Shown piece by piece: positions 9,361 through 37,181 of a DNA stretch of 57,695 nucleotides (its first letter is position 1; each line of letters opens with the position of its first letter). The notes beneath the pieces were generated by a model. The model saw only the letters and a program-made list of their open reading frames with translations. It did no database searches and had not been told where the DNA came from. Position numbers and translations under genes: made by a program. Source of the DNA: an uncultured virus (IMG/VR IMGVR_UViG_3300013110_000368) (Duplodnaviria; Heunggongvirae; Uroviricota; Caudoviricetes; Kyanoviridae); IMG/VR virus record IMGVR_UViG_3300013110_000368; one strand, written 5' to 3'.

Positions 9361-9398
9361 ATATTATACCACATTTTCAACCAAATGTCAAGCTAAAA
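9361..9398 (-). promoter_or_regulatory. Sigma70-type early promoter for primase
   Basis: TTTTAGCTTGACA-17nt-TATAAT with an extended -10 TG. Confidence 0.85.
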
Positions 9399-13858: not shown

Positions 13859-14905
13859 TCAAACTTCCATATCTTGGAAAATCCATCCAAGTTCCTCATC
13901 CCATCCAGCATCATCTAAGAGTTGAGTCTTGATACCCTTCTTCTCCGTCATCTCTGCCAAATTTTCGGCATCTTCCAATGAATGATATTCAGACTCTTTC
14001 CTTATCAACACCTGTTTGATCTTGATCTTGTTGAGTAGAATTTCATTCCATACAGTCCAACCATCATCACCAGAAATCACACCTTTCAGCAAATCAACAT
14101 GTTTGCCCATAAACGTTTCCATTAGATCAAAAGTTTTTCCGACCATCGTTCCAACAAATTTTCTGATATATTTAAGCAGAACCTTATCATTTTTAGTTTT
14201 GCCTGTACGAGATTTAGTGATATATGATGTAGAATGTCCTGATCCCAACCAATGCATCCATCTCATTGCTTCACGATCTGTACTATCGTCTGGTGCTGTA
14301 GGTATTTCTATTTCATTTTCTTCCATTTTATCTGATTCAGGCCAACGTATCATCATTAAACCACTGTAGAAACTACCAACCTCTTTTTTAATGAGACTAG
14401 CCTTTCTTTTGAATAGTTCAGACATCATGCTTTCTAATGCCCGAATATAATCACCCACATTAGTCATACCCCCCAACACACCAGCAGTATCTACCCATCT
14501 CCGACCCTGATCATCTGGTGCAGACATCAAATCCTGACTACCAGCAACGACCACATCTCCACTCATTTCTATCATCACACCACCTCTGGTCTGGATTCCA
14601 CCAAGACCATCAGACCCAAAATGCTCTAGTGCCATCTCTGCATTTGTAACCTGTGTCATGGTAGAGAGTGCTTTTGCCGATCCTTGCATTTTCAATACAT
14701 GGACTGCACCTTTAGGATCAGTGATATGATATGCCCATTGCTCCGTTTGGGTTTCGCCCGTTATACCCATTCTCCGTAGCATCAATTTGGACATCGGTAG
14801 ATACCCCATCTTTTGGTCATTTGGTTGCCAAAGCAAATCATAGATAGTTTTTTGCCATGCCACACCTTCGATCTTCTCTGATAGAAATTCCTTGAATCTT
14901 AGCAT
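13859..14905 (-). CDS. Putative internal virion protein; paralog of 1..1526; possible ART-like fold
   Basis: MLRFKEFLSE N-terminus; YHIT, LSTMT, QGRRW and WNEI motifs. Confidence 0.75.
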   Translation of the reverse strand: MLRFKEFLSEKIEGVAWQKTIYDLLWQPNDQKMGYLPMSKLMLRRMGITGETQTEQWAYHITDPKGAVHVLKMQGSAKALSTMTQVTNAEMALEHFGSDGLGGIQTRGGVMIEMSGDVVVAGSQDLMSAPDDQGRRWVDTAGVLGGMTNVGDYIRALESMMSELFKRKASLIKKEVGSFYSGLMMIRWPESDKMEENEIEIPTAPDDSTDREAMRWMHWLGSGHSTSYITKSRTGKTKNDKVLLKYIRKFVGTMVGKTFDLMETFMGKHVDLLKGVISGDDGWTVWNEILLNKIKIKQVLIRKESEYHSLEDAENLAEMTEKKGIKTQLLDDAGWDEELGWIFQDMEV

Positions 14906-16164
14906 TACATCTCTCTTTGATCTATTAGAATTGGTATACCCTCATAACCAGAAACCCCATGCTCAGATACATCTAACCCCTCAACTTCTTCACGTTCATC
15001 AACTCTGATTCCGATGGTATGCTTGATTAGCAGAAAAAGTGGAAAACTGATACCGAATGCCCACGCAAACCCTGCACCAACACCGATTGCCTGTACACCC
15101 AACTGAGTCCACCCTGCACTTGAACTAAACAATCCGATTGCCAACGTACCCCATGCACCACAAACACCATGCACTGAAATTGCACCAACTGGATCGTCAA
15201 TTTTTAACTTATCGAATAACCTAACTGCACCAACTACGATACAACCACCTACCAATCCCGTTAGAATTGCCATACTTGGTGACATAATATCACAACCAGC
15301 AGTGATTGATACCAACCCTGCTAATGCACCATTTAGTGCCAACGATGGATCTGGTTTTCGGAATAGGAACCAACTCAACAGACCAGCACCAATTGCCCCT
15401 GCACATGCAGACAAATTAGTGACCACAGCAATAAATGCCAAATCACCACCAACTGCGGTAGTACTGCCAGCATTGAATCCAAACCAACCCAACCACAATA
15501 CAAACACACCCAATGCTCCCATCGGTATATTATGTGCTGATATTAATCCCATTTTACCATCTTCCAAATATTTTCCCGTTCTTGCACCAACTACTATTGC
15601 CCCTGCTAATGCGGCCCATCCACCAATAGAGTGGACTACGGTAGAACCAGCAAAATCCAAGAACCCGATTTTTTCCAACCATCCCTCACCAGCATATAAA
15701 CTGCCCCATGCCCATGACCCAAATATTGGATATACCAGACCACAGATAATCAATGAAAACAGCAAATATGACGTGAACTTGGTTCTTTCGGCAACCGCAC
15801 CACTAACTATAGTTGCAGCGGTAGCACAAAATACAGTCTGGAATAGCAAAAAGGCCCAATTGAATCCAACTGAATTACCCGTTCCTTTTGCCAACTCCGA
15901 TGATCCATCAAAAAAGAAAAAATTCGTACCAACTAACCCATTCGATACACCAAACATCAACCCAAATCCAACCATCCAGAACACTATTGAACCAATCGAA
16001 ACATCCATCAAATTTTTCATGATAATGTTACAGACGTTTTTTGCCCGTGTGAACCCTGCTTCGACCATTGCGAACCCTGCTTGCATAAAAAATACCAAGA
16101 AGGCCGCAAGACATGTCCATAAGATATTTGAATCATCCCTAAGAATTTCTAAAGTGTCTACCAT
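14905..16164 (-). CDS. amtB: Ammonium transporter (Amt/Mep family)
   Basis: FMQAGFAMVEAG; FQTVF; DFAGSTVVH; GWFGFNAGS; DDPVGAISVH (twin His); E.EGLD..EHG tail. Confidence 0.96.
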   Translation of the reverse strand: MVDTLEILRDDSNILWTCLAAFLVFFMQAGFAMVEAGFTRAKNVCNIIMKNLMDVSIGSIVFWMVGFGLMFGVSNGLVGTNFFFFDGSSELAKGTGNSVGFNWAFLLFQTVFCATAATIVSGAVAERTKFTSYLLFSLIICGLVYPIFGSWAWGSLYAGEGWLEKIGFLDFAGSTVVHSIGGWAALAGAIVVGARTGKYLEDGKMGLISAHNIPMGALGVFVLWLGWFGFNAGSTTAVGGDLAFIAVVTNLSACAGAIGAGLLSWFLFRKPDPSLALNGALAGLVSITAGCDIMSPSMAILTGLVGGCIVVGAVRLFDKLKIDDPVGAISVHGVCGAWGTLAIGLFSSSAGWTQLGVQAIGVGAGFAWAFGISFPLFLLIKHTIGIRVDEREEVEGLDVSEHGVSGYEGIPILIDQREM

Positions 16165-19971: not shown

Positions 19972-20194
19972 TGATATATCTCCGTTGGGGGTTTCGGACA
20001 ATAATTGGACGACTATAGTTATAGTCGTAATAATAACTTCTACCATACACTGGTATTCTGTACGCATGTACAGGTGGTGGTGGATAAATCCTGATTGTCG
20101 AATCTATAGGTTCGTATTGATAAGTTTCAATAATGCAACCTGTTACCTGTGTGAGCAAAAACAAAATAATTGAAATTCCAATTAGTTTTTTCAT
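19748..20194 (-). CDS. Putative lipoprotein with Pro/Tyr-rich and Arg-rich tail
   Basis: MKKLIGISIILFLLTQVTG-C lipobox; ATGA overlap with the SET gene. Confidence 0.6.
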   Translation of the reverse strand: MKKLIGISIILFLLTQVTGCIIETYQYEPIDSTIRIYPPPPVHAYRIPVYGRSYYYDYNYSRPIIVRNPQRRYINARNRTVRSHPIRKRNVSGNHPIRNQASREHYKSKEMDSKRHTPKTSTSRPNGNRLQNRSRIRRKKRQHSTPVR

Positions 20195-20502
20195 GTTTGA
20201 CCTACCTCGTATAAAGTGTATTTACAGGTGATTTCTTCACCCTTTTTGATGTCCTTAGATGTAACCAAACGTTTCCAAATACCACTATCTACTAACGTGC
20301 AATTTGGTGTGTCACTGTGGTTATAAAACCCCCCCAACGGTGTCCTACAGTACCCCTGTGGAAAACTAAGCCACTCTACCATTCTGACATGTGCTATACC
20401 CAAATCAGTTTTTTCTGGTATATCACAAGTTGCAAATATACCCAAACCATGTATTGACGAATCCTTGATTGTCAAAGAATCAGGTAATGGTTTGTACTTC
20501 AT
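20191..20502 (-). CDS. SET-domain protein (lysine methyltransferase-like)
   Basis: IHGLGIFA; FYNHSDTPNC; DIKKGEEITCKY. Confidence 0.9.
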   Translation of the reverse strand: MKYKPLPDSLTIKDSSIHGLGIFATCDIPEKTDLGIAHVRMVEWLSFPQGYCRTPLGGFYNHSDTPNCTLVDSGIWKRLVTSKDIKKGEEITCKYTLYEVGQT

Positions 20503-21902
20503 ACTACCCCTTCAAATCTACTTGAGACATCTCTTGCCCCAATCGACCCACTAAAGAAATTATTGTCATCATCATCGTCATTCGGTGAATCAAACAGATC
20601 ATCCTGTGCCGAATCTTCGGCATCAAATACTCGCATTTTATCCCTATCTACCCCAACCACAAATCTTCGATACTTGGTTGGATCGTTATAACGATTTTTT
20701 AGTTGCTTGACCAATAATTGACCAAGTTCTTCCATTTCTTCATTGCTAATCAATGCCACCATAAAATCAGCAGTTGCTGGCAATCCAAAACTTTCAGCCG
20801 TATCAGTCAAATCCACATCAGAATTGGTAAAACCTGTCCGATTAGTCTGTGTTGCCGTTACAACTGGTATATTGTTCTCTACTGCCAACCCACGCAATTC
20901 CTCTGCAATTGACTTGACCAATGTATAAGAATTGGTATTGGCATTAGGTTTTACCCGACTCGACGAACAGATATTCAAGTAGTCGATGTAAATGATGTCT
21001 GGTCTAAAACTCTTTTTGAGATTCAGTTCATTCAACAGATGTCGAAAATGCCCCACATGTGCTACTGCCGTTGGGTATTCTTTGACAATCAACTTTCCAA
21101 CTGTCTTATTCCGTATGCTGTCGATATGACTAAGATATTTATCCCGTTTCAAGGTTGATAATTGCACCACTTCAACATCCAATAAATTGGCATCTATTCT
21201 TTCGGCAATCCGTTCTTCTGCCATCTCCAATGTGATATACAGTACATTCAAACCAGCATTCAAGTTTGCCCCTGCACAATGGCACATAAACAAACTCTTA
21301 CCCACACCAGTTCCAGCCATAATTACGTTCAATGACTTTTTAGGTAGACCACCTTTAGTGATTTTATTCATCAAATCCAGATCAAACGGAATCCGTTCCT
21401 CTACTTTGTGATAGTACTCAAACCGTTCCTCTGAATCCTCGATGTAATCATGACCAACATTAGGATCAAAACTAACTGACAGTGCATCACTCAACATTTT
21501 GGGTATCTCCCCCGTACCCGTTGTAGTTTTCTTATTGTCATCAATAATCTCAATCGACCCCATGATAGCATTGTATAATGCCTTATCCTGACAGAACTTT
21601 TCGGTTTCTGCCAACAACCACTCGATGTCAACTGGATTATCCTTACCCCCTTCCATCATTTTAACTGAATCTATCAAGTCTTTATACTGGTCTTCAGATA
21701 CCGTACCCAATGCCCCTAGAGAAATTTCTAAGGTTTCTCTAGTGGGGCAATTGTTGTAAGTGGCAACGTGTTTTGCCACTTCTTCAAATAACACTTTCTC
21801 ACTGAAATCATGAAAATACTTGTTATCCAAAAATGGCAAAACTTTTCTAGTGTATTCTTCATTATATATCAGATTCCGCAGAATCGTTTCTTCAATTCTC
21901 AA
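20499..21902 (-). CDS. gp41: Replicative helicase (T4 gp41-like)
   Basis: AGTGVGKS; ITLEMAEE; IDYLNI; TATQTNR; ESFGLPATAD; QLKNRY. Confidence 0.96.
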   Translation of the reverse strand: MRIEETILRNLIYNEEYTRKVLPFLDNKYFHDFSEKVLFEEVAKHVATYNNCPTRETLEISLGALGTVSEDQYKDLIDSVKMMEGGKDNPVDIEWLLAETEKFCQDKALYNAIMGSIEIIDDNKKTTTGTGEIPKMLSDALSVSFDPNVGHDYIEDSEERFEYYHKVEERIPFDLDLMNKITKGGLPKKSLNVIMAGTGVGKSLFMCHCAGANLNAGLNVLYITLEMAEERIAERIDANLLDVEVVQLSTLKRDKYLSHIDSIRNKTVGKLIVKEYPTAVAHVGHFRHLLNELNLKKSFRPDIIYIDYLNICSSSRVKPNANTNSYTLVKSIAEELRGLAVENNIPVVTATQTNRTGFTNSDVDLTDTAESFGLPATADFMVALISNEEMEELGQLLVKQLKNRYNDPTKYRRFVVGVDRDKMRVFDAEDSAQDDLFDSPNDDDDDNNFFSGSIGARDVSSRFEGVV

Positions 21903-22256: not shown

Positions 22257-23369
22257 CTACTCAACATCAGTATCAATCATACTCAAAGATTCTGACAAAT
22301 CTTTTTTTTCTTCACCATCAACCACTTCTAATTCCGAATCAACAGGTATCATTCCCCCATACTGAAATTCCTGATTGGCATATTTTTCAATTCTCTCCAT
22401 AATATCTGTGGTGAAATATTCCTTCGGATTTCCATATATCTTAGATGCATAATGCTTGCTTGCATCAGGCAACTCAATCCGATTAGACAATTTCTTGAAT
22501 ATACCAGCATCAACTGCCATATCAATCAACCCATAATACCGATCCAAACCCTTATCATAGGTCAACAACACCTCAACCTTTTTATTTTCCTTTGACAAAC
22601 GACTTTTTTCCATCTTGACCGTTATAATATTTCCTACTATCTCTTTATCACTATCCCTCTCTTTTCGTTTAGATAGCATAGCAATAGTAGATGCCGAATA
22701 TTTCAGACCAGACCCACCCGACATTTCCTTTGTTGGGTAATATGCACCAACCACATCATAGACATGATTGCAAACCAATAAAGGTACATTTGCCTTTGCC
22801 AATTTCAGATTCAATACCCGAAATGTTGCTTTTAGGATCTGTGCCTTTGTCATATCTCTGGTTTCATCACCCTTAGCCGTATCCTCAATTTCCTTCGTTG
22901 AGGATAATTGCCCAAGACTATCCAATATCATCATCATTGGTCTACGTTCTTCTTTATCCTGACTTATCTGAAAATCAATAGTTTGTAATGCCGTATGCCT
23001 AAACTTCTGTATGGTATCGGGTTCTGATTTTATAACCCGTCTGGTATCAATACCCCTACTTTGCATCATCTCATTTGTAACTGCACTTTCTGTATCAAAA
23101 TATACCACACTACCTTCTGGATTATTCTTCAAAAACTGACTAACTACCCCCAAGACGAAAAACGTCTTACCTGTTGCCGTTTCCCCTGCAAATACAGTCA
23201 CCTTGTTATTAGGCACACCACCATAAATACTACCTGACATTACAGCATTCAGAACATACGATCCAGTATCTACTGTACCAGAAAATTCGGCAGATGATTT
23301 CTCATCGGAAGCAATAGTAGTATGCTCATCTCCTAGTGTTTTTACAAGATCACTTAAAAAATCATTCAT
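22257..23369 (-). CDS. uvsX: UvsX RecA-like recombinase
   Basis: DTGSY.LN; GETATGKT; FDTE; LDSLG; DMTKA; SGGSGLKY. Confidence 0.95.
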   Translation of the reverse strand: MNDFLSDLVKTLGDEHTTIASDEKSSAEFSGTVDTGSYVLNAVMSGSIYGGVPNNKVTVFAGETATGKTFFVLGVVSQFLKNNPEGSVVYFDTESAVTNEMMQSRGIDTRRVIKSEPDTIQKFRHTALQTIDFQISQDKEERRPMMMILDSLGQLSSTKEIEDTAKGDETRDMTKAQILKATFRVLNLKLAKANVPLLVCNHVYDVVGAYYPTKEMSGGSGLKYSASTIAMLSKRKERDSDKEIVGNIITVKMEKSRLSKENKKVEVLLTYDKGLDRYYGLIDMAVDAGIFKKLSNRIELPDASKHYASKIYGNPKEYFTTDIMERIEKYANQEFQYGGMIPVDSELEVVDGEEKKDLSESLSMIDTDVE

Positions 23370-23646
23370 CCGTTTCGACCTCTATTTTTATGAAATTATC
23401 TTTGATACATGATGGACATTTAAATTTCCGTTCCATCACTTCTTCTGGTTCTCTAACTTTTTGTAAGATCCTATCCCATCTCGGAAACCTGACATTTAGA
23501 AACATGCTACAATCTTGACAGAAAAATCTGTGCAGTTTTCCACCACCCAAATATGACCCCCACATGGCAGGGGCAACCCCATCATGAGAGGAATCATCAG
23601 GTATTTCAAACTCCCTTACGTGAACAAACTTTTCAGCCAACCCCAA
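23362..23646 (-). CDS. Small Zn-ribbon protein
   Basis: CQDC...CPSC. Confidence 0.6.
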   Translation of the reverse strand: MGLAEKFVHVREFEIPDDSSHDGVAPAMWGSYLGGGKLHRFFCQDCSMFLNVRFPRWDRILQKVREPEEVMERKFKCPSCIKDNFIKIEVETDE

Positions 23647-24146
23647 AATCCTTTTGGTTTTTCAACAATCACCTCTTGTGATGCTACATTTTCCTTTGAC
23701 TTTTCTCTCAAATTCTCAAGTACCTGTTCCCTTTTTGACCATTCATCTTCTGTTTCCTTTGGGAAAAATTTGGAATGCGGAGGATCATCAGGTGCATCCT
23801 CATCTTTATATTCATCAAAAGATTCTTCATCTAAATCAGATTCGGTCAAAACTAGTTCATCAGATTCTTCTTCAACATCTGGTACTAGAAGTTCATCAAC
23901 TTCTTCACTATCTGTGAATTCCCATTCATCTTCTTCGATTACGGTTTCTTCTTTTTTCCTCTCTTGCAATTCATTTTCCAATTTAATGGCAACCTGTGCA
24001 ACAGTGTGCTTATGTCTAATATCGGAAACACGATCATCATCTAAACCACTCAAATGACTTTTTACCTCAATACCATACCCTTTGATTTCCTCTATCAATT
24101 TTGACGAACTAATACCAAATTCTTTTGCTAATTCATGTACTCTCAT
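23616..24146 (-). CDS. Protein with translation initiation factor IF2 N-terminal-like domain, acidic linker and amphipathic C-terminal helix
   Basis: MRVHELAKEFGISSSKLIEEIKGYGIEVKSHLSGLDDD; C-terminus KPKGFWGWLKSLFT. Confidence 0.8.
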   Translation of the reverse strand: MRVHELAKEFGISSSKLIEEIKGYGIEVKSHLSGLDDDRVSDIRHKHTVAQVAIKLENELQERKKEETVIEEDEWEFTDSEEVDELLVPDVEEESDELVLTESDLDEESFDEYKDEDAPDDPPHSKFFPKETEDEWSKREQVLENLREKSKENVASQEVIVEKPKGFWGWLKSLFT

Positions 24147-24154
24147 GTTTCACC

Positions 24155-26629
24155 TCATACGAAAAATGATTCTAAACTTGCCTGTTTCTCATAATGCCAA
24201 CCAACGACATTCAAGACGTTTCTTAGTGGATCTAAGTATGCCTTTTCAAATTGCATACCATAGTCTATATATTTATCTAAACCGAATTCACTAGGTAGGT
24301 TATTGATGAAAGCAATCACCCTATCAGTCGTCGGATTAGGTTCCTTTAGGTAGACATATTTTATTTTTTCGTTGTTCTTGATAATTGGATATGTCCGATC
24401 CAATTTGTGTTCTTTGACCAACGAATTGTAAATGATGGTTCCTTTGACGTGAAATGGTGTACCCTTTGTGTATAGATCTACACTGCTAGAATACTTGTCA
24501 ATTCCCTTTACTGTTCTCGGAAATGAAACTTCTGACACTGGCATCTCCATGAATTCCTCACGAAATTCCTTAACGTATTCAATCAGTTCATCCTCTGTAC
24601 TATCCATAATGATACTCAGTGAATCCATAATACGTTGCCTACAGGATGCTGGTGTTGAACTTCTTACGGCCTCAATTCCCATGATTTTGATCTTAGGTTT
24701 CTCATTTCTGACCCCTTCGTTATCCCACACATTCAGTACATACCGTTTTTTGGCAGTCCAGATACCTCTATCAGCAATAACCTCACGTTTCATCACCATT
24801 CTCTGCTGATATGCATTCATGTAGTCTGCCAATTTCTGATAACTCTTTTCGATAAATGGTTCAATTAGGTCTATGCAAACCCTATCCAATGCACTGACAA
24901 TTTTTTGCTTATCGGTCATATTCTGAAAATGGGTTTTGACTATAGCATCCAATGTCAAATATACACTATCTGTATCACTGGCAATCACATAATCCACATC
25001 ATCAGCTCTCAACAGAGAATTTAGATACTCGTTCAATTCTCGTTCAATCCACCGAATTGCCAATTGTCCAGACTTGGTGATTGCTTCTGCTTGCCTGACA
25101 TCAAAATATCTAAAATATTCATTACCCAAAGCACCATATGCACTATTTAGTGAAATCTTACGTGCCATCTGCCTAGTTTCATACTTGGCAACATTTTCTT
25201 TGTCACCCGATTTCAATGCATCCATCTGTAACTGCTTATACTTCACCCGATCATCATAAAACTGTTGCATCAACTCAGGTAGAAACCCCTGTGCTTCAGT
25301 ACTGAAATAATGCCCATTCCCAGCCATGGTTGCATTTGGCACATCTGGTAGTGGTAGTGTACCCTTGACTAACTCACTAACCTCAACAAAGAAACTTGGC
25401 AAATCTGTCCTCAAGGTTTCTGGTGAAATGTTGTACTGCATAATCAGATGTGGATACAGACTGTTCAAATCAAAGGATACTACCCAATCAGCAGATATAC
25501 CACCATCTTTGATCTCTTTGACATGACCACCTGTGAATTCTGGTTTGAATGGATTTTCCTTTCGTGGTGGCACAACGATATTCTTCTGCCTGAGATGGTT
25601 GTATATCACTGCATCCCAAAATCTGGTTTGAGCAAACACATCTTCGTAATTGATACCAGCATCATATGCCATCGTGACACACAACTCAATCAACCTCAAC
25701 TTATCCTCAAGTCTATCGACCAATTCAACGTCCTTGATATTGTACTCGATGAATTTCTGATAGTCCTGTTTGTAGAAATTGTGCATGGTATCGTGTTCTG
25801 CATATGACATCTTACGTTCACCCAATTCCACAAAGGCAATGTGATCCAGTTTATAACTCTCCTGACTGACATATGTATACTTTTTGTACAAGTCCAAATA
25901 ATCCAATTGCGAAAGACCAGCAATCATATAGACATATTCTTCACGGCCCATAATCTTGACTGTCCGTTCCTTCACTACATTCCAAACCGACATTTTTCTG
26001 GATGTACCATCACCCATCACCCGATCCATACGTCTAACCAAATATGGTATGTCATACAATTTGCTGTTCCAGCCCGTAACTATATCAGGTTGCAATGTAT
26101 TCCAAACTTCCAGAAATTTCTCAATCAACTCCATTTCAGTCGGACAACATATGTATTTGGTATTTTCATCAGCAACATCTACTGGTTCTCTACCCAAAAC
26201 ATATCGACCTTTGGTCAAACTATCCTTGATAGTTATGGCAATCAGTTCTTCCCGAACGTTCTCTACTGTCGGAAATCCTTGCTCTGATGCCACTTCTATA
26301 TCAATAGTGCAAATCCTGATCTTAGATAAATCGAAATCACACCCAAAAAATTTATCACCGATATACTGATGACTCCAATCGGTGTACCCATAGACGGAAA
26401 AATTTTCCACCCCTTTATATCTTTCCATGAAATTTCGACAATCACGAATAGATCCTGGCTGAACTTTTCCTACTGGTTCTCCATGTATGGTTCTGAATTT
26501 AGTTTTTTCTTTGGTGGGAATGAAAACGGTAGGTTTATATTCTTCGGAGTATCTAATACGTTCATCATTTTCAACACTTCGTACTCTGACATTATTTCCA
26601 ATCGTAAAAACATTTGTGTAATAGTTCAT
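24155..26629 (-). CDS. gp43: Family B DNA polymerase (T4 gp43-like)
   Basis: DIEV exonuclease motif; SFDLNSLYP; KISLNSAYG; SDTDS; KKRY. Confidence 0.98.
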   Translation of the reverse strand: MNYYTNVFTIGNNVRVRSVENDERIRYSEEYKPTVFIPTKEKTKFRTIHGEPVGKVQPGSIRDCRNFMERYKGVENFSVYGYTDWSHQYIGDKFFGCDFDLSKIRICTIDIEVASEQGFPTVENVREELIAITIKDSLTKGRYVLGREPVDVADENTKYICCPTEMELIEKFLEVWNTLQPDIVTGWNSKLYDIPYLVRRMDRVMGDGTSRKMSVWNVVKERTVKIMGREEYVYMIAGLSQLDYLDLYKKYTYVSQESYKLDHIAFVELGERKMSYAEHDTMHNFYKQDYQKFIEYNIKDVELVDRLEDKLRLIELCVTMAYDAGINYEDVFAQTRFWDAVIYNHLRQKNIVVPPRKENPFKPEFTGGHVKEIKDGGISADWVVSFDLNSLYPHLIMQYNISPETLRTDLPSFFVEVSELVKGTLPLPDVPNATMAGNGHYFSTEAQGFLPELMQQFYDDRVKYKQLQMDALKSGDKENVAKYETRQMARKISLNSAYGALGNEYFRYFDVRQAEAITKSGQLAIRWIERELNEYLNSLLRADDVDYVIASDTDSVYLTLDAIVKTHFQNMTDKQKIVSALDRVCIDLIEPFIEKSYQKLADYMNAYQQRMVMKREVIADRGIWTAKKRYVLNVWDNEGVRNEKPKIKIMGIEAVRSSTPASCRQRIMDSLSIIMDSTEDELIEYVKEFREEFMEMPVSEVSFPRTVKGIDKYSSSVDLYTKGTPFHVKGTIIYNSLVKEHKLDRTYPIIKNNEKIKYVYLKEPNPTTDRVIAFINNLPSEFGLDKYIDYGMQFEKAYLDPLRNVLNVVGWHYEKQASLESFFV

Positions 26630-26633
26630 GCCT

Positions 26634-26671
26634 ATATTATACCATAAAATCTTAGATTTGTCAAGCTAAAA
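26634..26671 (-). promoter_or_regulatory. Sigma70-type early promoter for DNA polymerase
   Basis: TTTTAGCTTGACA-17nt-TATAAT with TG extension. Confidence 0.85.
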
Positions 26672-26672
26672 T

Positions 26673-26703
26673 AAAAAAAGGGGTTGGAAATTTCCAACCC
26701 CTT
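26673..26703 (-). terminator. Rho-independent terminator after hsp20
   Basis: AAGGGGTTGGAAATTTCCAACCCCTTTTTTT on the minus strand. Confidence 0.9.
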
Positions 26704-26727
26704 CCCTATAACCACCCATTTGGGCTG

Positions 26728-27991: not shown

Positions 27992-28926
27992 TAGGCAAAC
28001 TCACATCGGTGCATAATCTCAGTTAGACATGCAACAATATTCACCTCTTGATCTACCACAAATGCAGATTTGTATTGATAATCCGCAACAATCACAACTG
28101 CCTGTGCTATACCAGATGGTGTCAAAGCATCAACCAACCGATCATACACATTTCTGAGTAGAACATTCGGTTCGTTATCCATATTATCGACCACCCACTT
28201 AGACATATTTGTAAAATGTTTGGATTTAATCATTTCGATTACCCGATCAATTTCCACATCAGCAACACTGGTCAATATGCCAACATCAATTGTACCACTA
28301 GCAGAATACCGTTGGAGTTCATTTAAAACCCTTCTCCAATCTGGTATGTATTTAGTTATCAGTTCTGCGACAACTTTTGGATCATATTCGACCCCCTCTT
28401 TTTCAAGAATTTTTTGCACTCTATCCATGAAGTCTGCAGCGAGTTGCTGAATTTCCTTCTTGGGGATTGTAAATTCGACAATCGAGCAACGTGAATGTAA
28501 AGGACTGATAATCCGATTGGCAAAATTACAAGTGAAGATAAACCTGCAATTTTTGCTAAATTCCTCAATGAATCTTCTGAGTGCTGGTTGCGTGACGTGC
28601 GAGAGATAGTCTGCTTCATCTAATATCACCACCTTTCTACCACCAGTAAGTGAAACCGTACTGGCAAAATTTTTAATTTGATTTCTAAGTGTATCTATAC
28701 CACCTTCTTCTGAACCATTTATCAAAATATAATCAAAATCTAATTCTGTGCATAATGCCTTGGCAATAGTCGTCTTGCCTACTCCAGCTGAACCACATAA
28801 CAAAAGATTTGGAATTTCGTTGTTTTTCACAAATTCCCGAAAGGTCTTTTTAAGACCCTTCGGTAATATACATTCATCAATAGTTTGGGGTCGATATTTC
28901 TCGACCCATAGAAATTCCTCTCTCAC
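27991..28926 (-). CDS. gp44: Clamp loader large subunit (gp44-like)
   Basis: LWVEKYRP; GSAGVGKTT; ILDEAD; PLHSRC. Confidence 0.96.
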   Translation of the reverse strand: MREEFLWVEKYRPQTIDECILPKGLKKTFREFVKNNEIPNLLLCGSAGVGKTTIAKALCTELDFDYILINGSEEGGIDTLRNQIKNFASTVSLTGGRKVVILDEADYLSHVTQPALRRFIEEFSKNCRFIFTCNFANRIISPLHSRCSIVEFTIPKKEIQQLAADFMDRVQKILEKEGVEYDPKVVAELITKYIPDWRRVLNELQRYSASGTIDVGILTSVADVEIDRVIEMIKSKHFTNMSKWVVDNMDNEPNVLLRNVYDRLVDALTPSGIAQAVVIVADYQYKSAFVVDQEVNIVACLTEIMHRCEFA

Positions 28927-29603
28927 TAAACATCTCCAAAGGTAGAATCTGGTTCAAGTGCAATCCAGTATTCCAACTCAATCTCATTGTTTTTAAAATG
29001 ACTAATACCTTCTGCTGAAATGGAAACTGTATAATCTCCACGCAACATTTTAAGGTTTTCAGTTCTGAAATACATCTCGAATGTACTGTCTGCACCATTC
29101 CCGACTTCCAAATCGAATGTATTAGTTGTCGGATCTCTCTTATCCAACACACTTAGGTTAATTTGACCAGAACCATTGCTCCGTAAAGCAAGATCTGGTT
29201 TACCTAATACATTTGACATATTCCTAACCGTACTAAAATCTTCCTTTGTCAAATCAAACGTTATATCGGAATCTGGCATATTCATCGTTTTAGTCGGTGA
29301 TATTATTGTACTGGCATCAGCATAGTAATATCGACAAACTGCCTTATCCCTACTCAATACCACTGATTCTCCATCAAATTCATACACAGCACCCTCAAAA
29401 ATTTCATCGCCAGCAACCCTCAAAAATTCACCCAAATCGTAGATTCCGAATTCATTCCCAAAAGTTTCAGCAACTTCTGCCTGTGCCAAAATGTTCTTAG
29501 ATGTTGATATAGTTGATAACACATTTCCCTTCTTCACCAATATCGAACCATTGATGGTTGAAAAGTTCTTCAGTATATCAAACGTTGCTCTTGAAATTTG
29601 CAT
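28926..29603 (-). CDS. gp45: Sliding clamp (gp45-like)
   Basis: ILKNFSTIN; FGIYDL..FL; ENLKML.GDY.V; YWIALE. Confidence 0.95.
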   Translation of the reverse strand: MQISRATFDILKNFSTINGSILVKKGNVLSTISTSKNILAQAEVAETFGNEFGIYDLGEFLRVAGDEIFEGAVYEFDGESVVLSRDKAVCRYYYADASTIISPTKTMNMPDSDITFDLTKEDFSTVRNMSNVLGKPDLALRSNGSGQINLSVLDKRDPTTNTFDLEVGNGADSTFEMYFRTENLKMLRGDYTVSISAEGISHFKNNEIELEYWIALEPDSTFGDV

Positions 29604-29629
29604 ATCCACTCCAATTATCTTTAATGACT

Positions 29630-29667
29630 ATATTATACCATATTTTTTCTAGTTTGTCAAGCTAAAA
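29630..29667 (-). promoter_or_regulatory. Sigma70-type early promoter for gp45-gp44-gp62-regA
   Basis: Same TTTTAGCTTGACA-17nt-TATAAT motif; the -35 box overlaps the upstream gene's stop codon. Confidence 0.85.
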
Positions 29668-30817
29668 AATCTTCTAATGTGATTTTTTTTGGTTTACTCC
29701 AATTAGCGTTATTTTCTATCTGAGTTTCCATCATAGAATTGAATGTCTCATGATAATACTCTAAACCACCAGCAACTTCATAATATTTCTCCTTTATTTC
29801 CTCTAATAGTTCAAGTCGTAATGAATCATCTCTCAGTTCAATGCATTTCGCATACAACCCCTCAAAGGTATCAACTCTCTGATAATCATTTGCAACTAAC
29901 ATACAATTCACATCATACTTTCTCCAAACCAAAGGAATGACATCACAGACTACGCATTCATTGTATCTAGCAGTCAATATATCATCAAAATCAGGCCAAT
30001 TGAAGCATAAAGACACTCTTGCCTTTTGAACCTCTGGTATAACTTTAGACCCCATTAAATGGGTAAATTTTACATCTTGTTTGAACCCATCGAAAAAACC
30101 AATCCAAAATGTTTTCAAATCTGAACGATTGGTTTTCTTCAAAATCTCATACCTAAAATCCTCCGACAGTTTTTTCTTATATAATGGTTGCTGTTTTCGT
30201 ACTAACCCTCTGTCCATAATATCATACATCACCTGTTCACTCGTATATGAATAGATGAATCTTTTTGTAGTACCCCAATATGCAAAATCATAGATTTTAT
30301 CTGGTTTATGACCACCTAAATGCTTATCTATTATCGTCTGCCTGACGTGATGCACCCCTGCCCTAAAATCGGATTCATCTATGACACTATAGGTAAAATC
30401 AAACTCATTAAATACATTCTTCTGAAACAATTCAACCGTATCTGCTCGATCACTTTTTAATAATATGATATGTCTGGGTTTTCCATCTTCCCGAAATTGA
30501 ACCCTAACATCTTCCACATAATTCCATGTACGTTTCATTTTATAACCATCAACCCGACTCTCAATGTTATATGCAAACTCAGAATCGGTAGTTATGACCA
30601 ATACATCTGTGTCCTTCAAATCCACAGAACTTCTAGGCACGTTACGACCCACGTAATTAAAATTATACCATCTGAAATCATAGTTTTGCTGATTAGTCTT
30701 GACAAAATTATCGTACAAGTAGAAAAATGAATCAGTTGGTTGATTTGGTTGCCACAACTTTGTATAATTTCTCTGTTTAGCATTCCTCAATCTACAAAAA
30801 GTTACAACCTTTTTCAT
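29657..30817 (-). CDS. GT-B glycosyltransferase, T4 beta-glucosyltransferase-like
   Basis: DFAYWG; C-terminal LTARYNECVVCDVIPLVWRKYD...LYAKCIELRDDSLRLELL parallels the BGT C-terminal domain (recalled from memory). Confidence 0.6.
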   Translation of the reverse strand: MKKVVTFCRLRNAKQRNYTKLWQPNQPTDSFFYLYDNFVKTNQQNYDFRWYNFNYVGRNVPRSSVDLKDTDVLVITTDSEFAYNIESRVDGYKMKRTWNYVEDVRVQFREDGKPRHIILLKSDRADTVELFQKNVFNEFDFTYSVIDESDFRAGVHHVRQTIIDKHLGGHKPDKIYDFAYWGTTKRFIYSYTSEQVMYDIMDRGLVRKQQPLYKKKLSEDFRYEILKKTNRSDLKTFWIGFFDGFKQDVKFTHLMGSKVIPEVQKARVSLCFNWPDFDDILTARYNECVVCDVIPLVWRKYDVNCMLVANDYQRVDTFEGLYAKCIELRDDSLRLELLEEIKEKYYEVAGGLEYYHETFNSMMETQIENNANWSKPKKITLEDFLA

Positions 30818-31587
30818 GCCACGTTCCATATCAAAGCCCCCTTTGTACCATGATCTTTAACAAACTTCCAAACCTTAGCATCATAATTAGCAACAGATGG
30901 ATACGGTGGCAATTCATTTTCTGGTGGAACTTGGTCAAACTTCAAAGGATGTTTATAAACTTTTGCCGAAAGACTTTCATGTGATTGGAGTTTATGCCCA
31001 ACTGATACTATATTATGTTCTGCATCAGGCCACCCCAGTTGCAACCCCCTAGATAAAGTTCCCGATCCACCAACAACCCAAACTTCAGATGGATTGTAGT
31101 CTATACTACCACAAACCCGAATAAAGGAAGCCATTACAGTTGGGTGATCTATACCAAACGGAACTAGTTTTCTGAATTTTGGTTTCTGGTTGACATACGA
31201 AACTGCCTTGGACATAGTATGCGACAGATACCCCATATCCACCCACTCAACAACAGCACCTTCTGCAATTGCCTTTTTTTGTGGCATAGTATAATTTTCT
31301 TCCTTTCTTTTTGCCATAAACAATACTAATTTTTTATTATATCTTTTACAAAGAATGGAAAGGGAAACTTGGGCCCAACCATTTGCTGGACTCCCCCCAT
31401 ATACCCATTCCTCGCATTCCATATTGCTTTGGATTAAAAAATCAGCAACTCTGATCTTGGAACCACCATGCAACAAATCATCCCGTACTACAACAAACCC
31501 TTCATGTTCTTTAAGTATGGGTTTTGGGTTTCCGTCTTCCCAATCACCAATCAACTCAAGATATTCTTCTGTTGTTAAATCTATCAT
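30814..31587 (-). CDS. PLP-dependent enzyme (ACC deaminase / D-cysteine desulfhydrase fold)
   Basis: VVRDDLLHGGSKIR (Schiff-base Lys); VVGGSGTLSRG phosphate loop; NYDAK; LIWNVA. Confidence 0.8.
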   Translation of the reverse strand: MIDLTTEEYLELIGDWEDGNPKPILKEHEGFVVVRDDLLHGGSKIRVADFLIQSNMECEEWVYGGSPANGWAQVSLSILCKRYNKKLVLFMAKRKEENYTMPQKKAIAEGAVVEWVDMGYLSHTMSKAVSYVNQKPKFRKLVPFGIDHPTVMASFIRVCGSIDYNPSEVWVVGGSGTLSRGLQLGWPDAEHNIVSVGHKLQSHESLSAKVYKHPLKFDQVPPENELPPYPSVANYDAKVWKFVKDHGTKGALIWNVA

Positions 31588-32955: not shown

Positions 32956-32993
32956 ATATTATACCACATTTCCAACCAATTGTCAAGCTAAAA
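32956..32993 (-). promoter_or_regulatory. Sigma70-type early promoter for the methyltransferase operon
   Basis: TTTTAGCTTGACA-17nt-TATAAT with TG extension. Confidence 0.85.
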
Positions 32994-35593: not shown

Positions 35594-36621
35594 TCTATGC
35601 TTACCGCCTCCAAGTACAGATCTCGCAACATTTTGTCTAATCTGCTCTTGTCTAAATCAGTTGATAAATTTTTCACATGATTACTAATTATGGTGATAGT
35701 GTCCTCTGTGCCTTCAATCTTGGTTTCATCTTCAATCGTATCAAAATCCTCTACGATAGACAATTGTGCTGGATTGACTGCATACAATTCATCGACAAAG
35801 GAATCGAACTCATATGGATTTTTTTTCTCCGATACTACCAACCTCACAAATTTGTTACTGTATACCGAAAAATCAATCTCCATATCCTCTTTGTAAAATA
35901 TCTTATGAAACAGAACATTCGGATTCCGAATAAACTCCAACTCTTGTGTCTCAGTATCAAAAATATGAAACCCCCTATCTGTATTGTAATCAGACCACAT
36001 CATTTCATATGGTGTACCTAGATAGTAAATATGCCCATCATCATTTCTTAGATGAAAGTGACCAGACAAAACCTGTTTGAATTTAGAAAAATCAGTTTTC
36101 GACATCCCGATCTCAGATCTCATACCCTTAAACATTAGAAACCCCACTAATGCCAAATGCCCCATCAGGATCGTAGAATCTGTTTTATCTAACTCCACAA
36201 AGGAATCGTGTTCATTTTCTGCACACAGCCATGGCAATAAACAAACCCTCAAATCACCAAGTGTAATGGTTTCGGCAGTATCATAAACATGAATAAATGG
36301 TGTATCCCCATACAATTCATTAACCGAACTCAACTTTAATGTATTCTTGTAATATGAATCATGATTACCAACCAGAATATGAGTCATTATGGTTCTATCA
36401 TAAATTATTTCCATGAAATTTTTGCGTAGGTTATTCAATGTCAAAAAGGAAACTGTTTTCCGTTTATCCATCAGATCACCCAAATGCACCACATCCTTGA
36501 TATTATGTTCTTCCAGATACGGGAAAAACACTTCACCGAAAAACTGATTGATATGTGCTTGCACCACTTGATTATCATTCCTTGCCCCAAAATGCGTATC
36601 CGTAATTAATGCTACCTTCAC
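35590..36621 (-). CDS. gp47: Recombination endonuclease nuclease subunit (gp47, Mre11-like)
   Basis: DTHFG; HLGDL; GNHD; SGHFH. Confidence 0.96.
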   Translation of the reverse strand: MKVALITDTHFGARNDNQVVQAHINQFFGEVFFPYLEEHNIKDVVHLGDLMDKRKTVSFLTLNNLRKNFMEIIYDRTIMTHILVGNHDSYYKNTLKLSSVNELYGDTPFIHVYDTAETITLGDLRVCLLPWLCAENEHDSFVELDKTDSTILMGHLALVGFLMFKGMRSEIGMSKTDFSKFKQVLSGHFHLRNDDGHIYYLGTPYEMMWSDYNTDRGFHIFDTETQELEFIRNPNVLFHKIFYKEDMEIDFSVYSNKFVRLVVSEKKNPYEFDSFVDELYAVNPAQLSIVEDFDTIEDETKIEGTEDTITIISNHVKNLSTDLDKSRLDKMLRDLYLEAVSIE

Positions 36622-37181
36622 TCCATAAACCTCTCTAATGATTTTTTATTTGCCTTTCTGAGTTCCCGTTTTTGTTCCATTTTTCTTTCGTAATCAGCCA
36701 CATCAAACCCTTCGTTGACCTTAACATGATCTAATACGTGCGTATCACCATATTCTTCAAATAATGCCATTGATCTTTCTTCAACCATTTTTTCGGATAA
36801 TTTATGTTTAACATATGCTTGTTTTTTCTCTCGTTCAATTCTTCGGACAAAGGCATAATATATTATTTGAGTAAAGTAGGCAAATGGATTTTTAGATTTT
36901 TCTGGATTGAAATTGGAACAGTACTGCAAACAATTCTCAATACCATCCCCGATCATTTCCTCTTTGTAAGTATAATTTATGAAATTTGGTTTGTTGGATA
37001 AATTCATGGCAATATCTACAAAGCACTTTCCCATGAAATCAGTAGCTGGTGGAAGTACAATATCAGATAATGGAATTCCATCTGCTAGACCTTGATTTCG
37101 GGTCGTCAGTACCAAATCACAATACTCCACCATTTCCTTGTAGAATTGTTTATTATCAATGTAGTGTGCTTTCTTTGCCAT
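36618..37181 (-). CDS. gp55: Late transcription sigma factor (gp55-like)
   Basis: HYIDNK.F; KPNF.NYTY.EEMI.DGIENC; NPFAYFTQI. Confidence 0.96.
   Translation of the reverse strand: MAKKAHYIDNKQFYKEMVEYCDLVLTTRNQGLADGIPLSDIVLPPATDFMGKCFVDIAMNLSNKPNFINYTYKEEMIGDGIENCLQYCSNFNPEKSKNPFAYFTQIIYYAFVRRIEREKKQAYVKHKLSEKMVEERSMALFEEYGDTHVLDHVKVNEGFDVADYERKMEQKRELRKANKKSLERFME

What the first reader, a model, noticed from the sequence alone, without database searches (positions are those of the whole stretch)
23616..24146. Stand-alone IF2 N-terminal domain with acidic linker and membrane-targeting helix
Seen: the first ~45 aa match the IF2_N signature (RVHELAKE.G.SS..L......GI.VKSH.S.L), followed by a very acidic region and an amphipathic KGFWGWLKSLF end. 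The gene sits between gp43 and uvsX. Known: IF2_N occurs in IF2 and some RNase E/G proteins, and IF2 favours leaderless initiation. Inference: a translation-factor mimic that tethers or redirects ribosomes, perhaps linked to the leaderless mRNAs; the acidic stretch could be a nucleic-acid mimic.
Basis: partly seen in the sequence, partly recalled or inferred. Interest (0 to 1): 0.7.

Follow-up and report, generated by a model that had tools for sequence, protein, structure and literature searches.

The report
Membrane-anchored IF2 head-domain phage protein
An uncultured marine T4-like phage carries, right behind its DNA polymerase gene, a small conserved protein made of a copy of the N-terminal domain of the bacterial translation factor IF2, a long acidic floppy spacer and a greasy end helix that looks like a membrane anchor; its job is unknown, but it probably holds or diverts part of the host's gene-expression machinery at the membrane.

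Summary
ORF 23616-24146 (- strand, 176 aa) scores above Pfam's threshold for IF2_N (41.7 bits, cut-off 25.3). Residues 51-132 carry 34 D/E of 82. The last 11 residues (GFWGWLKSLFT) form a predicted helix that is the most membrane-interface-loving segment in the window outside a true membrane protein.

It is a real, uncharacterised family: 167 metagenomic relatives, none in GenBank phages, PHROGs or NCBIfam. In 30 of 32 viral loci it lies beside gp43 and/or uvsX. The head and the tail are conserved; the acidic spacer varies from 46 to 211 aa.

The head matches the extreme N-terminus of bacterial IF2 at about 50% identity. The fold is also shared with excisionase/MerR-type winged helices.

Published partners of IF2's N-terminal sub-domains are 16S rRNA helix h16 (N2 and Thermus N/G1) and NusA (E. 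coli Domain I).

My best reading, at 0.4 confidence, is a membrane-tethered decoy or tether for the host partner of IF2's N-terminus. Rivals are a DNA-to-membrane tether and a protein-docking tail.

The gene has a strong Shine-Dalgarno site, and most relatives carry it behind a leadered gp43. The window does hold three predicted leaderless early genes.

It is a new variant built from known parts. Function is untested.

The parts
23616..24146 (-). whole ORF, 176 aa plus stop (IF2_N head, acidic spacer, amphipathic tail)
23997..24146 (-). residues 1-50: IF2_N domain (N1-type head); its last helix runs on to about residue 67
   Evidence: Pfam 41.7 bits; pLDDT 85-90; Thermus IF2 N domain E=2.1e-6, Foldseek prob 0.99-1.0; 33-58 bits on residues 1-47 of 65 bacterial IF2
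23751..23996 (-). residues 51-132: acidic region, mostly disordered from about residue 68, net charge -27
23652..23750 (-). residues 133-165: predicted helix 133-152, then the conserved Q157-x-V-I-V-E-K-P-K lead-in to the tail
23619..23651 (-). residues 166-176: GFWGWLKSLFT, conserved aromatic amphipathic helix and candidate membrane-targeting sequence
24150..24156 (-). Shine-Dalgarno GAGGTGA, overlapping the gp43 stop codon (24155-24157), 3 nt before the ATG
   Evidence: read from the sequence
24155..26629 (-). gp43 DNA polymerase, the upstream gene of the same predicted transcription unit (context)
26636..26664 (-). perfect sigma-70 consensus promoter TTGACA-17-TATAAT with a TG extension, ending 6 nt before the gp43 ATG; a terminator-like hairpin lies at 26674-26707 just upstream
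23362..23646 (-). 94-aa Zn-ribbon-like ORF overlapping the 3' end of the gene by 31 nt; adjacent in 7 of 32 loci, so not an obligatory partner
22257..23369 (-). uvsX recombinase, downstream neighbour (context)

Best explanation
The ORF encodes an early-expressed phage protein with three parts.

(1) The head, residues 1 to about 50, is a homologue of the N-terminal sub-domain of bacterial IF2. It starts at Met1 with the same MRVHELAKE...KSH.S.L signature as the extreme N-terminus of many bacterial IF2 proteins. This is shown.

(2) The middle is a disordered, strongly acidic spacer of variable length. This is shown for composition and predicted for disorder.

(3) The end is an 11-residue Trp/Phe/Leu-rich amphipathic helix preceded by K-P-K. 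It resembles the C-terminal membrane-targeting sequence of MinD but is longer and more hydrophobic. I infer that it lies flat in the cytoplasmic face of the host inner membrane.

Inferred mechanism: the tail fixes the protein on the membrane, and the acidic spacer, repelled by the anionic lipid surface, holds the head tens of nanometres out into the cytoplasm. The head binds whatever the N-terminal sub-domains of the host's own IF2 bind. The two published partners are helix h16 on the 30S shoulder and NusA on elongating RNA polymerase.

The phage would thereby either compete with host IF2 (decoy) or hold ribosomes or transcription complexes at the membrane (tether) while its replication genes are expressed.
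For: Head. Pfam IF2_N scores 41.7 bits against a cut-off of 25.3, and 117 of 117 family members match it. A family profile hits Thermus IF2 residues 5-59 at E=2.1e-6. Foldseek ranks Thermus IF2 first, with prob 0.99-1.0 and rmsd 2.3 A over 65 columns. The best 80 matches in 185,579 species' genomes all cover only the head. In 71 of 80 they sit at the start of an ORF with the IF2 G-motif, 8 are cut by the contig end, and 1 is a 228-aa ORF. The phage head profile scores 33.5-58.0 bits on residues 1 to about 47 of 65 complete IF2 proteins, against at most 6.1 bits for the second (N2) copy. K29, H31, S33 and R44 are conserved in both the phage and the bacterial sets.

Partners of such domains. N2 and Thermus N/G1 bind h16 (PMC9192638, section 10 read). 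E. coli Domain I, including N1, binds NusA KH2-AR1 by pull-down and crosslinking (PMC12297416, passages read).

Tail. It is a predicted helix with interfacial energy -5.8 kcal/mol, rank 14 of 16,934. It sits at the extreme C-terminus in 104 of 116 members. It follows the pattern KGF..LK[SR]LF of E. coli MinD's MTS KGFLKRLFGG (motif printed in PMC5471200, passage read), and one variant ends ...GFFGWIRGLFGG. Distant relatives keep the physical character but not the sequence (SWWSRIFGWWLGS, GWFAKLFSWWVRN, LGFFSWLFSLLFNRK, GFFSFLFGIFK). 45 of 139 further cluster representatives have such a tail. This pattern is typical of lipid-binding helices rather than of a specific peptide-protein contact (inference).

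Spacer. It is 46-211 aa long with median net charge -29.5.

Expression. The gene starts 8 nt behind gp43, has a strong Shine-Dalgarno site, and follows a 12-of-12 consensus sigma-70 promoter. Contigs from RNA libraries of two studies overlap its two ends, which is weak evidence because DNA carry-over is not excluded.

Selection. The gene keeps its place in 30 of 32 loci whose gp43 is only 53-100% identical.
Against: No binding of any kind has been tested, and the host is unknown.

The head is about neutral (net -1). Its fold is equally that of excisionase/MerR-type DNA-binding HTH domains: pSK1 Par 8csh prob 0.98, RacA and Xis, and a phage HTH protein at prob 0.99 in BFVD. No Foldseek match reached E<=0.001 in either library.

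Of the h16-contacting residues named for Pseudomonas N2 (Ser-Val-Lys at the start of helix 2), the Ser is kept (S14, 95%). The Lys is not at the same place in most members, where position 16 is E in 55%.

PMC12297416 itself says the IF2 N-terminus and the NusA C-terminus are not conserved among bacteria.

The bacterial IF2 set was picked by patterns taken from the phage family. It is therefore biased towards look-alikes and says nothing about the host.

The tail's amphipathic order is only moderately better than shuffles (p=0.04 and 0.17).

Strong residue-level conservation of GFWGW within the syntenic clade would also fit a protein contact.
Confidence: 0.4

Rival explanations
1. DNA (or RNA) to membrane tether. 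The head acts as an excisionase/MerR-like winged helix that binds phage or host nucleic acid, and the tail fixes it to the membrane. This would organise membrane-associated replication or recombination, or pull the host nucleoid to the periphery, in the manner of B. subtilis RacA or Noc, phi29 p16.7 or T4 Ndd (these comparisons are recalled).
For: After IF2, the fold neighbours are DNA-bound wHTH domains: pSK1 Par DBD with DNA (8csh, prob 0.98, TM 0.71 on the target), RacA-DNA (5i44), RdfS and Pukovnik Xis, and phage HTH or excisionase proteins in BFVD. The gene is fixed inside the replication-recombination block gp43-uvsX-gp41 in 30 of 32 loci. IF2's own N2 copy of this fold binds a nucleic-acid helix, h16 (PMC9192638).
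Against: The head is not basic (net -1) and the whole protein is net -29. The sequence signature is that of IF2, not of any HTH family in Pfam: only IF2_N passes, and HTH_69 appears in 1 of 117 members at E=0.075. Position in a T4-like genome is weak evidence of function.
Confidence: 0.2
2. The tail is a protein-docking peptide, not a lipid anchor. Like the C-terminal tails of T4 gp43, gp55 and gp33 (recalled), it plugs into the sliding clamp gp45 or another replisome or RNA polymerase protein. The family would then be an accessory factor of replication or late transcription, with an acidic body like gp33.
For: The architecture of folded head, acidic disordered body and short conserved hydrophobic C-terminal peptide is that of hub-binding proteins. 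The last six residues follow the same template as this clade's gp43 tails: L-K-S-L-F-T against L-E-S-F-F-V. In loci L012, L014 and L015 both proteins end in GFFG. The gene lies in the replication module two genes from the clamp loader and clamp. GFWGW is nearly invariant within the syntenic clade.
Against: All 29 gp43 tails examined carry L-E-x-F-F, and gp55 ends SLERFME. The IF2_N tail has K/R/A/T/I where they have E, and its conserved core (G-F-W-G-W) lies outside that motif. Distant relatives keep only the aromatic amphipathic character. 12 of 116 members carry extra residues after the helix, so a free C-terminus is not needed.
Confidence: 0.15
3. One reading: a translation-factor mimic that redirects ribosomes specifically towards the phage's leaderless mRNAs.
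For: The window has five 12-of-12 consensus promoters on the gene strand. Three of them end 6-7 nt before an ATG (gp43 at 26629, primase gp61 at 9355, an unknown ORF at 32951), which predicts leaderless mRNAs. The IF2_N gene is the second gene of one such unit. IF2 is known to favour leaderless initiation (recalled: Grill et al.). An IF2_N-fold domain anchors IF2 on the 30S (PMC9192638).
Against: The gene itself uses a strong Shine-Dalgarno site. Of 23 related loci whose gp43 upstream region was examined, only 3 (L002, L004, L016) have the leaderless-type promoter. Most of the others show a hairpin followed by a Shine-Dalgarno-like leader, yet they carry the gene. The head lacks everything in IF2 that handles fMet-tRNA or GTP. 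N1 is unresolved on ribosomes (bioRxiv 10.64898/2026.06.26.734871, passages).
Confidence: 0.1

Closest known systems
N-terminal sub-domain of bacterial IF2 (Pfam IF2_N, PF04760; sub-domain N1 of long IF2 proteins; N/G1 domain of Thermus thermophilus IF2, e.g. 4b43, 4kjz)
   Same: Same sequence signature from Met1 (MRVHELAKE...G..VKSH.S.L), about 50% identity to many bacterial IF2 N-termini, and the same predicted fold.
   Different: It stands alone, with no G domain and no C1 or C2 domains. It is followed by an acidic spacer and a hydrophobic tail. It is phage-encoded. Its partner is unknown.
C-terminal membrane-targeting sequence of MinD (E. coli KGFLKRLFGG, as printed in PMC5471200)
   Same: A short amphipathic helix at the extreme C-terminus behind a basic K-G, with the shared pattern KGF..LK[SR]LF. 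One variant ends LFGG.
   Different: It is one turn longer (WGW inserted), with two Trp and far stronger predicted interfacial partitioning. It is attached to a non-ATPase. Membrane binding is untested.
Nucleic-acid-to-membrane or pole tethers with an N-terminal MerR-like winged helix (RacA 5i44; pSK1 Par 8csh)
   Same: Fold of the head and the overall plan of an N-terminal small wHTH, a long linker and a C-terminal localisation element.
   Different: No sequence relation. Their heads are basic and bind DNA. Their linkers are coiled coils, not acidic disordered regions.
Clamp-binding C-terminal tails of T4-type gp43, gp55 and gp33
   Same: A short hydrophobic peptide at the extreme C-terminus of an acidic protein encoded in the replication module, with the template hydrophobic-charged-small-hydrophobic-F-x.
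   Different: The clade's clamp motif [ST]-L-E-x-F-F is not present. The tail's conserved core is G-F-W-G-W.

Membership tests
Pfam IF2_N (PF04760) | HMM score at or above the gathering threshold | tested here: met
   41.7 bits against 25.3, residues 1-44; 117 of 117 family members match
Pfam IF2_N (PF04760) | Fold of the IF2 N-terminal sub-domain | tested here: met
   AF2 head pLDDT 85-90. Foldseek top six hits are Thermus IF2, prob 0.99-1.0, rmsd 2.3-2.8 A over 65-67 columns for five of them and 5.2 A over 72 for one, though E is only 0.075-0.13
N1-type (distal) rather than N2-type (G-proximal) IF2 sub-domain | Scores on the extreme N-terminus of long IF2 proteins, not on the copy before the G domain | tested here: met
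   33.5-58.0 bits on residues 1 to about 47, against at most 6.1 bits near the G domain, in 65 IF2 ORFs. Caveat: these IF2 proteins were selected by patterns from the phage family. Thermus' single, G-proximal domain is also N1-like in sequence (PMC9192638).
Translation initiation factor IF2 (InfB) | GTPase G domain plus the C-terminal tRNA-binding domains | tested here: not met
   176 aa in all. Pfam finds only IF2_N and NCBIfam finds nothing. It is not an initiation factor, whatever the automatic names say.
MinD-type C-terminal membrane-targeting sequence | Short amphipathic helix at the extreme C-terminus with flanking basic residues | tested here: met
   Helix 166-175; K163, K165 and K172; hydrophobic arc 40-200 degrees; terminal in 104 of 116 members
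MinD-type C-terminal membrane-targeting sequence | Binds the lipid bilayer | not testable with these tools
   Only a computed interfacial energy of -5.8 kcal/mol
T4-type sliding-clamp-binding tail | The clade's C-terminal motif [ST]-L-E-x-F-[FLM] | tested here: not met
   29 of 29 gp43 tails have L-E-x-F-F and gp55 ends SLERFME. The IF2_N tail reads W-L-K-S-L-F-T, with K/R/A/T/I at the E position.
Excisionase/MerR-like DNA-binding winged helix | Fold similarity | tested here: met
   8csh prob 0.98, TM 0.71 on the target; 5i44; Xis; phage HTH protein prob 0.99
Excisionase/MerR-like DNA-binding winged helix | Sequence membership in an HTH family and a basic DNA-binding surface | tested here: inconclusive
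   No HTH Pfam family passes. The head is net -1, but R2, K8, K29, H31, R44 and K46 are conserved.

The most novel reading that the evidence does not exclude
A phage has taken the 5' end of a bacterial infB gene and turned it into a membrane tether. The borrowed IF2 head grabs the host's 30S shoulder or NusA-RNA polymerase, and the tryptophan-rich tail pins the catch to the inner membrane. This would relocate or starve host transcription-translation coupling during takeover. It would be a previously undescribed takeover device, and a natural probe for what the enigmatic N-terminal domain of IF2 does, including its genetic links to recombination and replication restart.
Probability: 0.3. Interest if true: 0.8.

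Novelty: new variant of a known kind. Interest (0 to 1): 0.55.

Why it matters
The N-terminal domain of IF2 is conserved but poorly understood. Recent work ties it to NusA (PMC12297416). Genetics tie the IF2 isoform that carries it to RecA-dependent recombination and PriA-dependent restart (PMC3334882 and bioRxiv 10.1101/2021.06.16.448654, abstracts read).

A phage family keeps just this domain, fuses it to a probable membrane anchor, and fixes it between the DNA polymerase and the RecA-like recombinase. Evolution has thereby isolated the domain as a self-sufficient module. Finding its partner would say what the domain does in bacteria and would reveal a takeover step in abundant marine T4-like phages.

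If the head only binds DNA, it is an ordinary small HTH protein with an unusual anchor.

Tried and rejected
(1) Complex prediction of the gp45 trimer with residues 125-176 gave no answer: score 0.25, below the mark of 0.32, and the controls were not run. It is no evidence either way.

(2) tblastn against 50,697 GenBank phage records found no match (the low-complexity filter was on). At the same position, HTVC008M and P-SSM4 carry unrelated ORFs.

(3) PHROGs and NCBIfam gave no family.

(4) Searches for longer proteins. With the head, one IF2_N+TPR protein was found. With the tail region 137-176, there was no candidate. Both are word-based, so this is weak evidence of absence.

(5) No whole genome is held for this window, so gp33, gp32 and host clues outside the window could not be sought.

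(6) The protein atlas returned only the protein's own viral cluster (163 members) above 0.9.

(7) Earlier notes of this scan held nothing on this gene, and the word search gave only loose analogies.

(8) Sequencing runs. The DNA occurs in marine and seawater metagenomes of several studies, but only contigs were available, so transcript starts could not be mapped. RNA-library contigs overlap 24035-24256 and 23473-23734. Uncovered parts mean nothing.

(9) A FlgM-like match is confined to the out-of-context relative in L031 and is absent from the 117-member family.

(10) Host inference from the nearest bacterial IF2 heads (PVC-group, Coriobacteriia, Clostridia, Syntrophobacteraceae) was rejected, because the set is pattern-biased.

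(11) Literature searches for IF2_N/PF04760 and for phage + IF-2 + T4-like + metagenome listed no paper on stand-alone phage IF2_N proteins. Only listings were seen for most hits.

Full report
**What is there.** The window is a piece of a T4-like marine myovirus with no close cultured relative. On the - strand lie gp41 (20499-21902), uvsX (22257-23369), a 94-aa Zn-ribbon-like ORF (23362-23646) and the ORF in question (23616-24146). They are followed by gp43 (24155-26629), Hsp20, regA, clamp loader subunits, the clamp gp45 (28926-29609), gp46/47 and gp55 (36618-37181). The gp43 protein is at most about 51% identical to any GenBank phage, the best being cyanomyoviruses.

The ORF encodes 176 aa. 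Pfam IF2_N matches residues 1-44 at 41.7 bits against a threshold of 25.3. Residues 51-132 hold 34 D/E and 7 K/R, and the whole protein is net -29. The sequence ends ...QEVIVEKPKGFWGWLKSLFT. One addition: a small Zn-ribbon-like ORF lies between this gene and uvsX and overlaps its last 31 nt.

**It is a real, conserved gene family.** A search of 5.8 billion proteins gave 167 relatives at E<=0.01. All 120 listed carry PF04760 and measure 107-272 aa. An exhaustive profile search of 1.84 billion cluster representatives gave 25 at E<=1e-30, 106 at E<=1e-10 and 3081 at E<=0.001. The last figure includes IF2 itself and other IF2_N proteins.

In a 117-sequence alignment the invariant columns are M1 R2 V3 L6 A7 K8 G25 S30 L32 S33 and W170. 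Q157, G166, W168 and F175 are conserved at 90% or more. The middle does not align. The spacer is 46-211 aa long (median 127), with median net charge -29.5 and a median of 34% D/E.

GenBank phages, PHROGs and NCBIfam have nothing. The protein atlas places it in an all-viral cluster of 163 members.

**Context.** Of 32 viral-contig loci encoding a relative, 30 have it beside gp43 and/or uvsX. In 25 both neighbours are visible. In 5 the contig end leaves only one. In three loci about 350 nt separate it from gp43. The gp43 proteins of these loci are 53-100% identical to the window's. The Zn-ribbon ORF is adjacent in only 7 of the 32.

Two loci differ. L032 is one. L031 is the other: there a 119-aa IF2_N protein with a FlgM-like stretch and the tail ...KKKGFFSFLFGIFK lies between terminase-like and portal genes. 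Pelagibacter phage HTVC008M and Prochlorococcus phage P-SSM4 have unrelated ORFs between gp43 and uvsX.

**The head.** AlphaFold2 on the family alignment gives a confident head (pLDDT 85-90, helices 3-10, 14-23 and 37-67). It also gives a disordered stretch (pLDDT below 50 for most of 69-128), a helix at 133-152 and a terminal helix at 166-175.

By sequence profile, the only solved relatives are Thermus thermophilus IF2 N-terminal residues 5-59 (E=2.1e-6). By fold, Thermus IF2 ranks first, with prob 0.99-1.0 and rmsd 2.3 A over 65 columns. Next come DNA-bound MerR/excisionase-type winged helices (pSK1 Par 8csh, RacA 5i44, Xis proteins) and the N2 sub-domain of Pseudomonas IF2 on the 30S (7uiu). 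No match reached E<=0.001. The viral structure library gives phage HTH and excisionase proteins.

In one genome per species (185,579 species), the best 80 matches all cover only the head, at 40-61% identity apart from one at 29%. In 71 of them the match is the very start of an ORF with the IF2 G-motif. Eight are cut by the contig end and one is a 228-aa ORF. A profile of the phage heads scores 33.5-58.0 bits on residues 1 to about 47 of 65 complete IF2 proteins. It scores at most 6.1 bits on the second copy next to the G domain. So by sequence the head is the distal, N1-type sub-domain.

Two caveats apply. Those IF2 proteins were fished with patterns from the phage family. And Thermus' single G-proximal domain is N1-like in sequence as well (PMC9192638, section 10).

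**What such domains are known to do.** The evidence comes from papers.

- The N2 sub-domain, equated with Thermus N/G1, anchors IF2 on helix h16 of the 30S shoulder (PMC9192638, section read).
- The region upstream of N2 is not resolved on the ribosome (bioRxiv 10.64898/2026.06.26.734871, passages).
- E. coli Domain I, with N1 at its tip, binds the KH2-AR1 part of NusA in pull-down, crosslinking and tracking experiments. The authors note that these regions are not conserved across bacteria (PMC12297416, passages).
- Loss of the isoform carrying Domain I changes RecA-dependent recombination and PriA-dependent restart phenotypes (PMC3334882 and bioRxiv 10.1101/2021.06.16.448654, abstracts).

None of this has been tested for the phage protein.

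**The tail.** GFWGWLKSLFT places F167, W168, W170, L171, L174 and F175 on one 160-degree arc. G166, G169, K172, S173 and T176 lie on the other side. Its computed interfacial free energy (scale values recalled) is -5.8 kcal/mol, 14th of 16,934 11-mers. Only segments of the ammonium transporter at 14905-16164 score lower, and the next C-terminal 11-mer scores -1.7. Against shuffles of its own residues, the amphipathic order is better at p=0.04 (Eisenberg) but only p=0.17 on the interfacial scale.

It shares the pattern K-G-F...L-K-[S/R]-L-F with the MinD membrane-targeting sequence KGFLKRLFGG (PMC5471200). One variant ends GFFGWIRGLFGG. The polar-face positions vary (K172 to T, A, I or R; S173 to G) while the hydrophobic face is kept. 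More distant IF2_N proteins end in unrelated but equally aromatic amphipathic peptides; 45 of 139 further representatives do so. That is the behaviour of a lipid-binding helix, so I read the tail as a membrane anchor (inference).

The main alternative is a docking peptide for the sliding clamp. This clade's gp43 tails all read L-E-x-F-F (29 of 29), and gp55 ends SLERFME. The IF2_N tail shares the L-x-x-hydrophobic-F-x template, and in three loci even the ending GFFG. It lacks the acidic residue, and its conserved core lies elsewhere.

**Expression and the leaderless question.** The gene's ATG lies 8 nt behind the gp43 stop, and GAGGTGA overlaps that stop, so the gene is not leaderless. Upstream of gp43 there is a terminator-like hairpin. 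It is followed by a perfect TTGACA-17-TATAAT promoter with a TG extension that ends 6 nt before the gp43 ATG.

Five such 12-of-12 promoters lie on the gene strand. Simple arithmetic for random sequence of this length gives about 0.02 expected. Three of them end 6-7 nt before an ATG: gp43, primase gp61 at 9355, and an ORF at 32951.

The link to this gene is not. Of 23 related loci examined, only L002, L004 and L016 keep that arrangement before gp43. Most of the others show a hairpin plus a Shine-Dalgarno-like leader and still carry the gene.

Contigs from RNA libraries of two studies overlap the gp43/IF2_N junction (24035-24256) and the tail/Zn-ribbon region (23473-23734). This is only a weak hint of transcription.

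**Verdict.** The anatomy is solid: IF2-type head, acidic disordered spacer and aromatic amphipathic tail, conserved in a clade of uncultured marine T4-like phages and fixed behind gp43.

The most likely mechanism, at 0.4, is a membrane-anchored decoy or tether for the host partner of IF2's N-terminal sub-domains (30S shoulder or NusA-RNA polymerase).

It is not an initiation factor, despite the automatic names. It is a new combination of known parts with no entry in PHROGs, NCBIfam or GenBank phages, and no paper in the searches.

Noticed in passing
window 14905-16164 (-): Phage-encoded ammonium transporter (Pfam Ammonium_transp, E=4.6e-116). It is a full-length integral membrane auxiliary gene inside the replication/nucleotide-metabolism region.
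   Followed up: partly
window 26636-26664, 9363-9391, 32958-32986 (-): Perfect TTGACA-17-TATAAT promoters ending 6-7 nt before the ATG of gp43 (26629), primase gp61 (9355) and an unknown ORF (true start probably 32951, not 32975). They predict leaderless early mRNAs. Two further perfect promoters, before gp45 and gp55, have normal leaders. The gp43 arrangement is kept in only 3 of 23 related loci.
   Followed up: partly
window 23362-23646 (-): 94-aa ORF with two Cys pairs (weak Zn-ribbon matches) that overlaps the last 31 nt of the IF2_N gene in another frame. It is adjacent in 7 of 32 related loci and elsewhere in L019.
   Followed up: partly
window 29657-30829 (-): 390-aa ORF next to the clamp gene, with no family in Pfam, PHROGs or NCBIfam. 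It ends ...TLEDFLA, like the presumed clamp-binding tails of gp43 (SLESFFV) and gp55 (SLERFME). It is a candidate new clamp client.
   Followed up: no
window 20191-20502 (-): 103-aa SET-domain protein (PF00856, E=2.6e-11; phrog_28741), overlapping the gp41 gene's 3' end by 4 nt.
   Followed up: no
L031 6001-6360: In an unrelated 105-kb viral contig, a 119-aa protein combines IF2_N, a FlgM-like stretch (PF04316, 30.9 bits against a cut-off of 25) and an amphipathic tail GFFSFLFGIFK. It lies between terminase-like and portal genes. The FlgM-like part is absent from the main family.
   Followed up: partly
window, whole: The T4 late-promoter motif TATAAATA occurs 12 times against 4.8 expected, 11 of them on the gene strand, several just upstream of structural genes.
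   Followed up: no
proteins P0125, P0159, P0177: Other architectures of the IF2_N domain in metagenomes: IF2_N plus TPR repeats (348 aa), and proteins of 571 and 620 aa with four IF2_N-like stretches.
   Followed up: no
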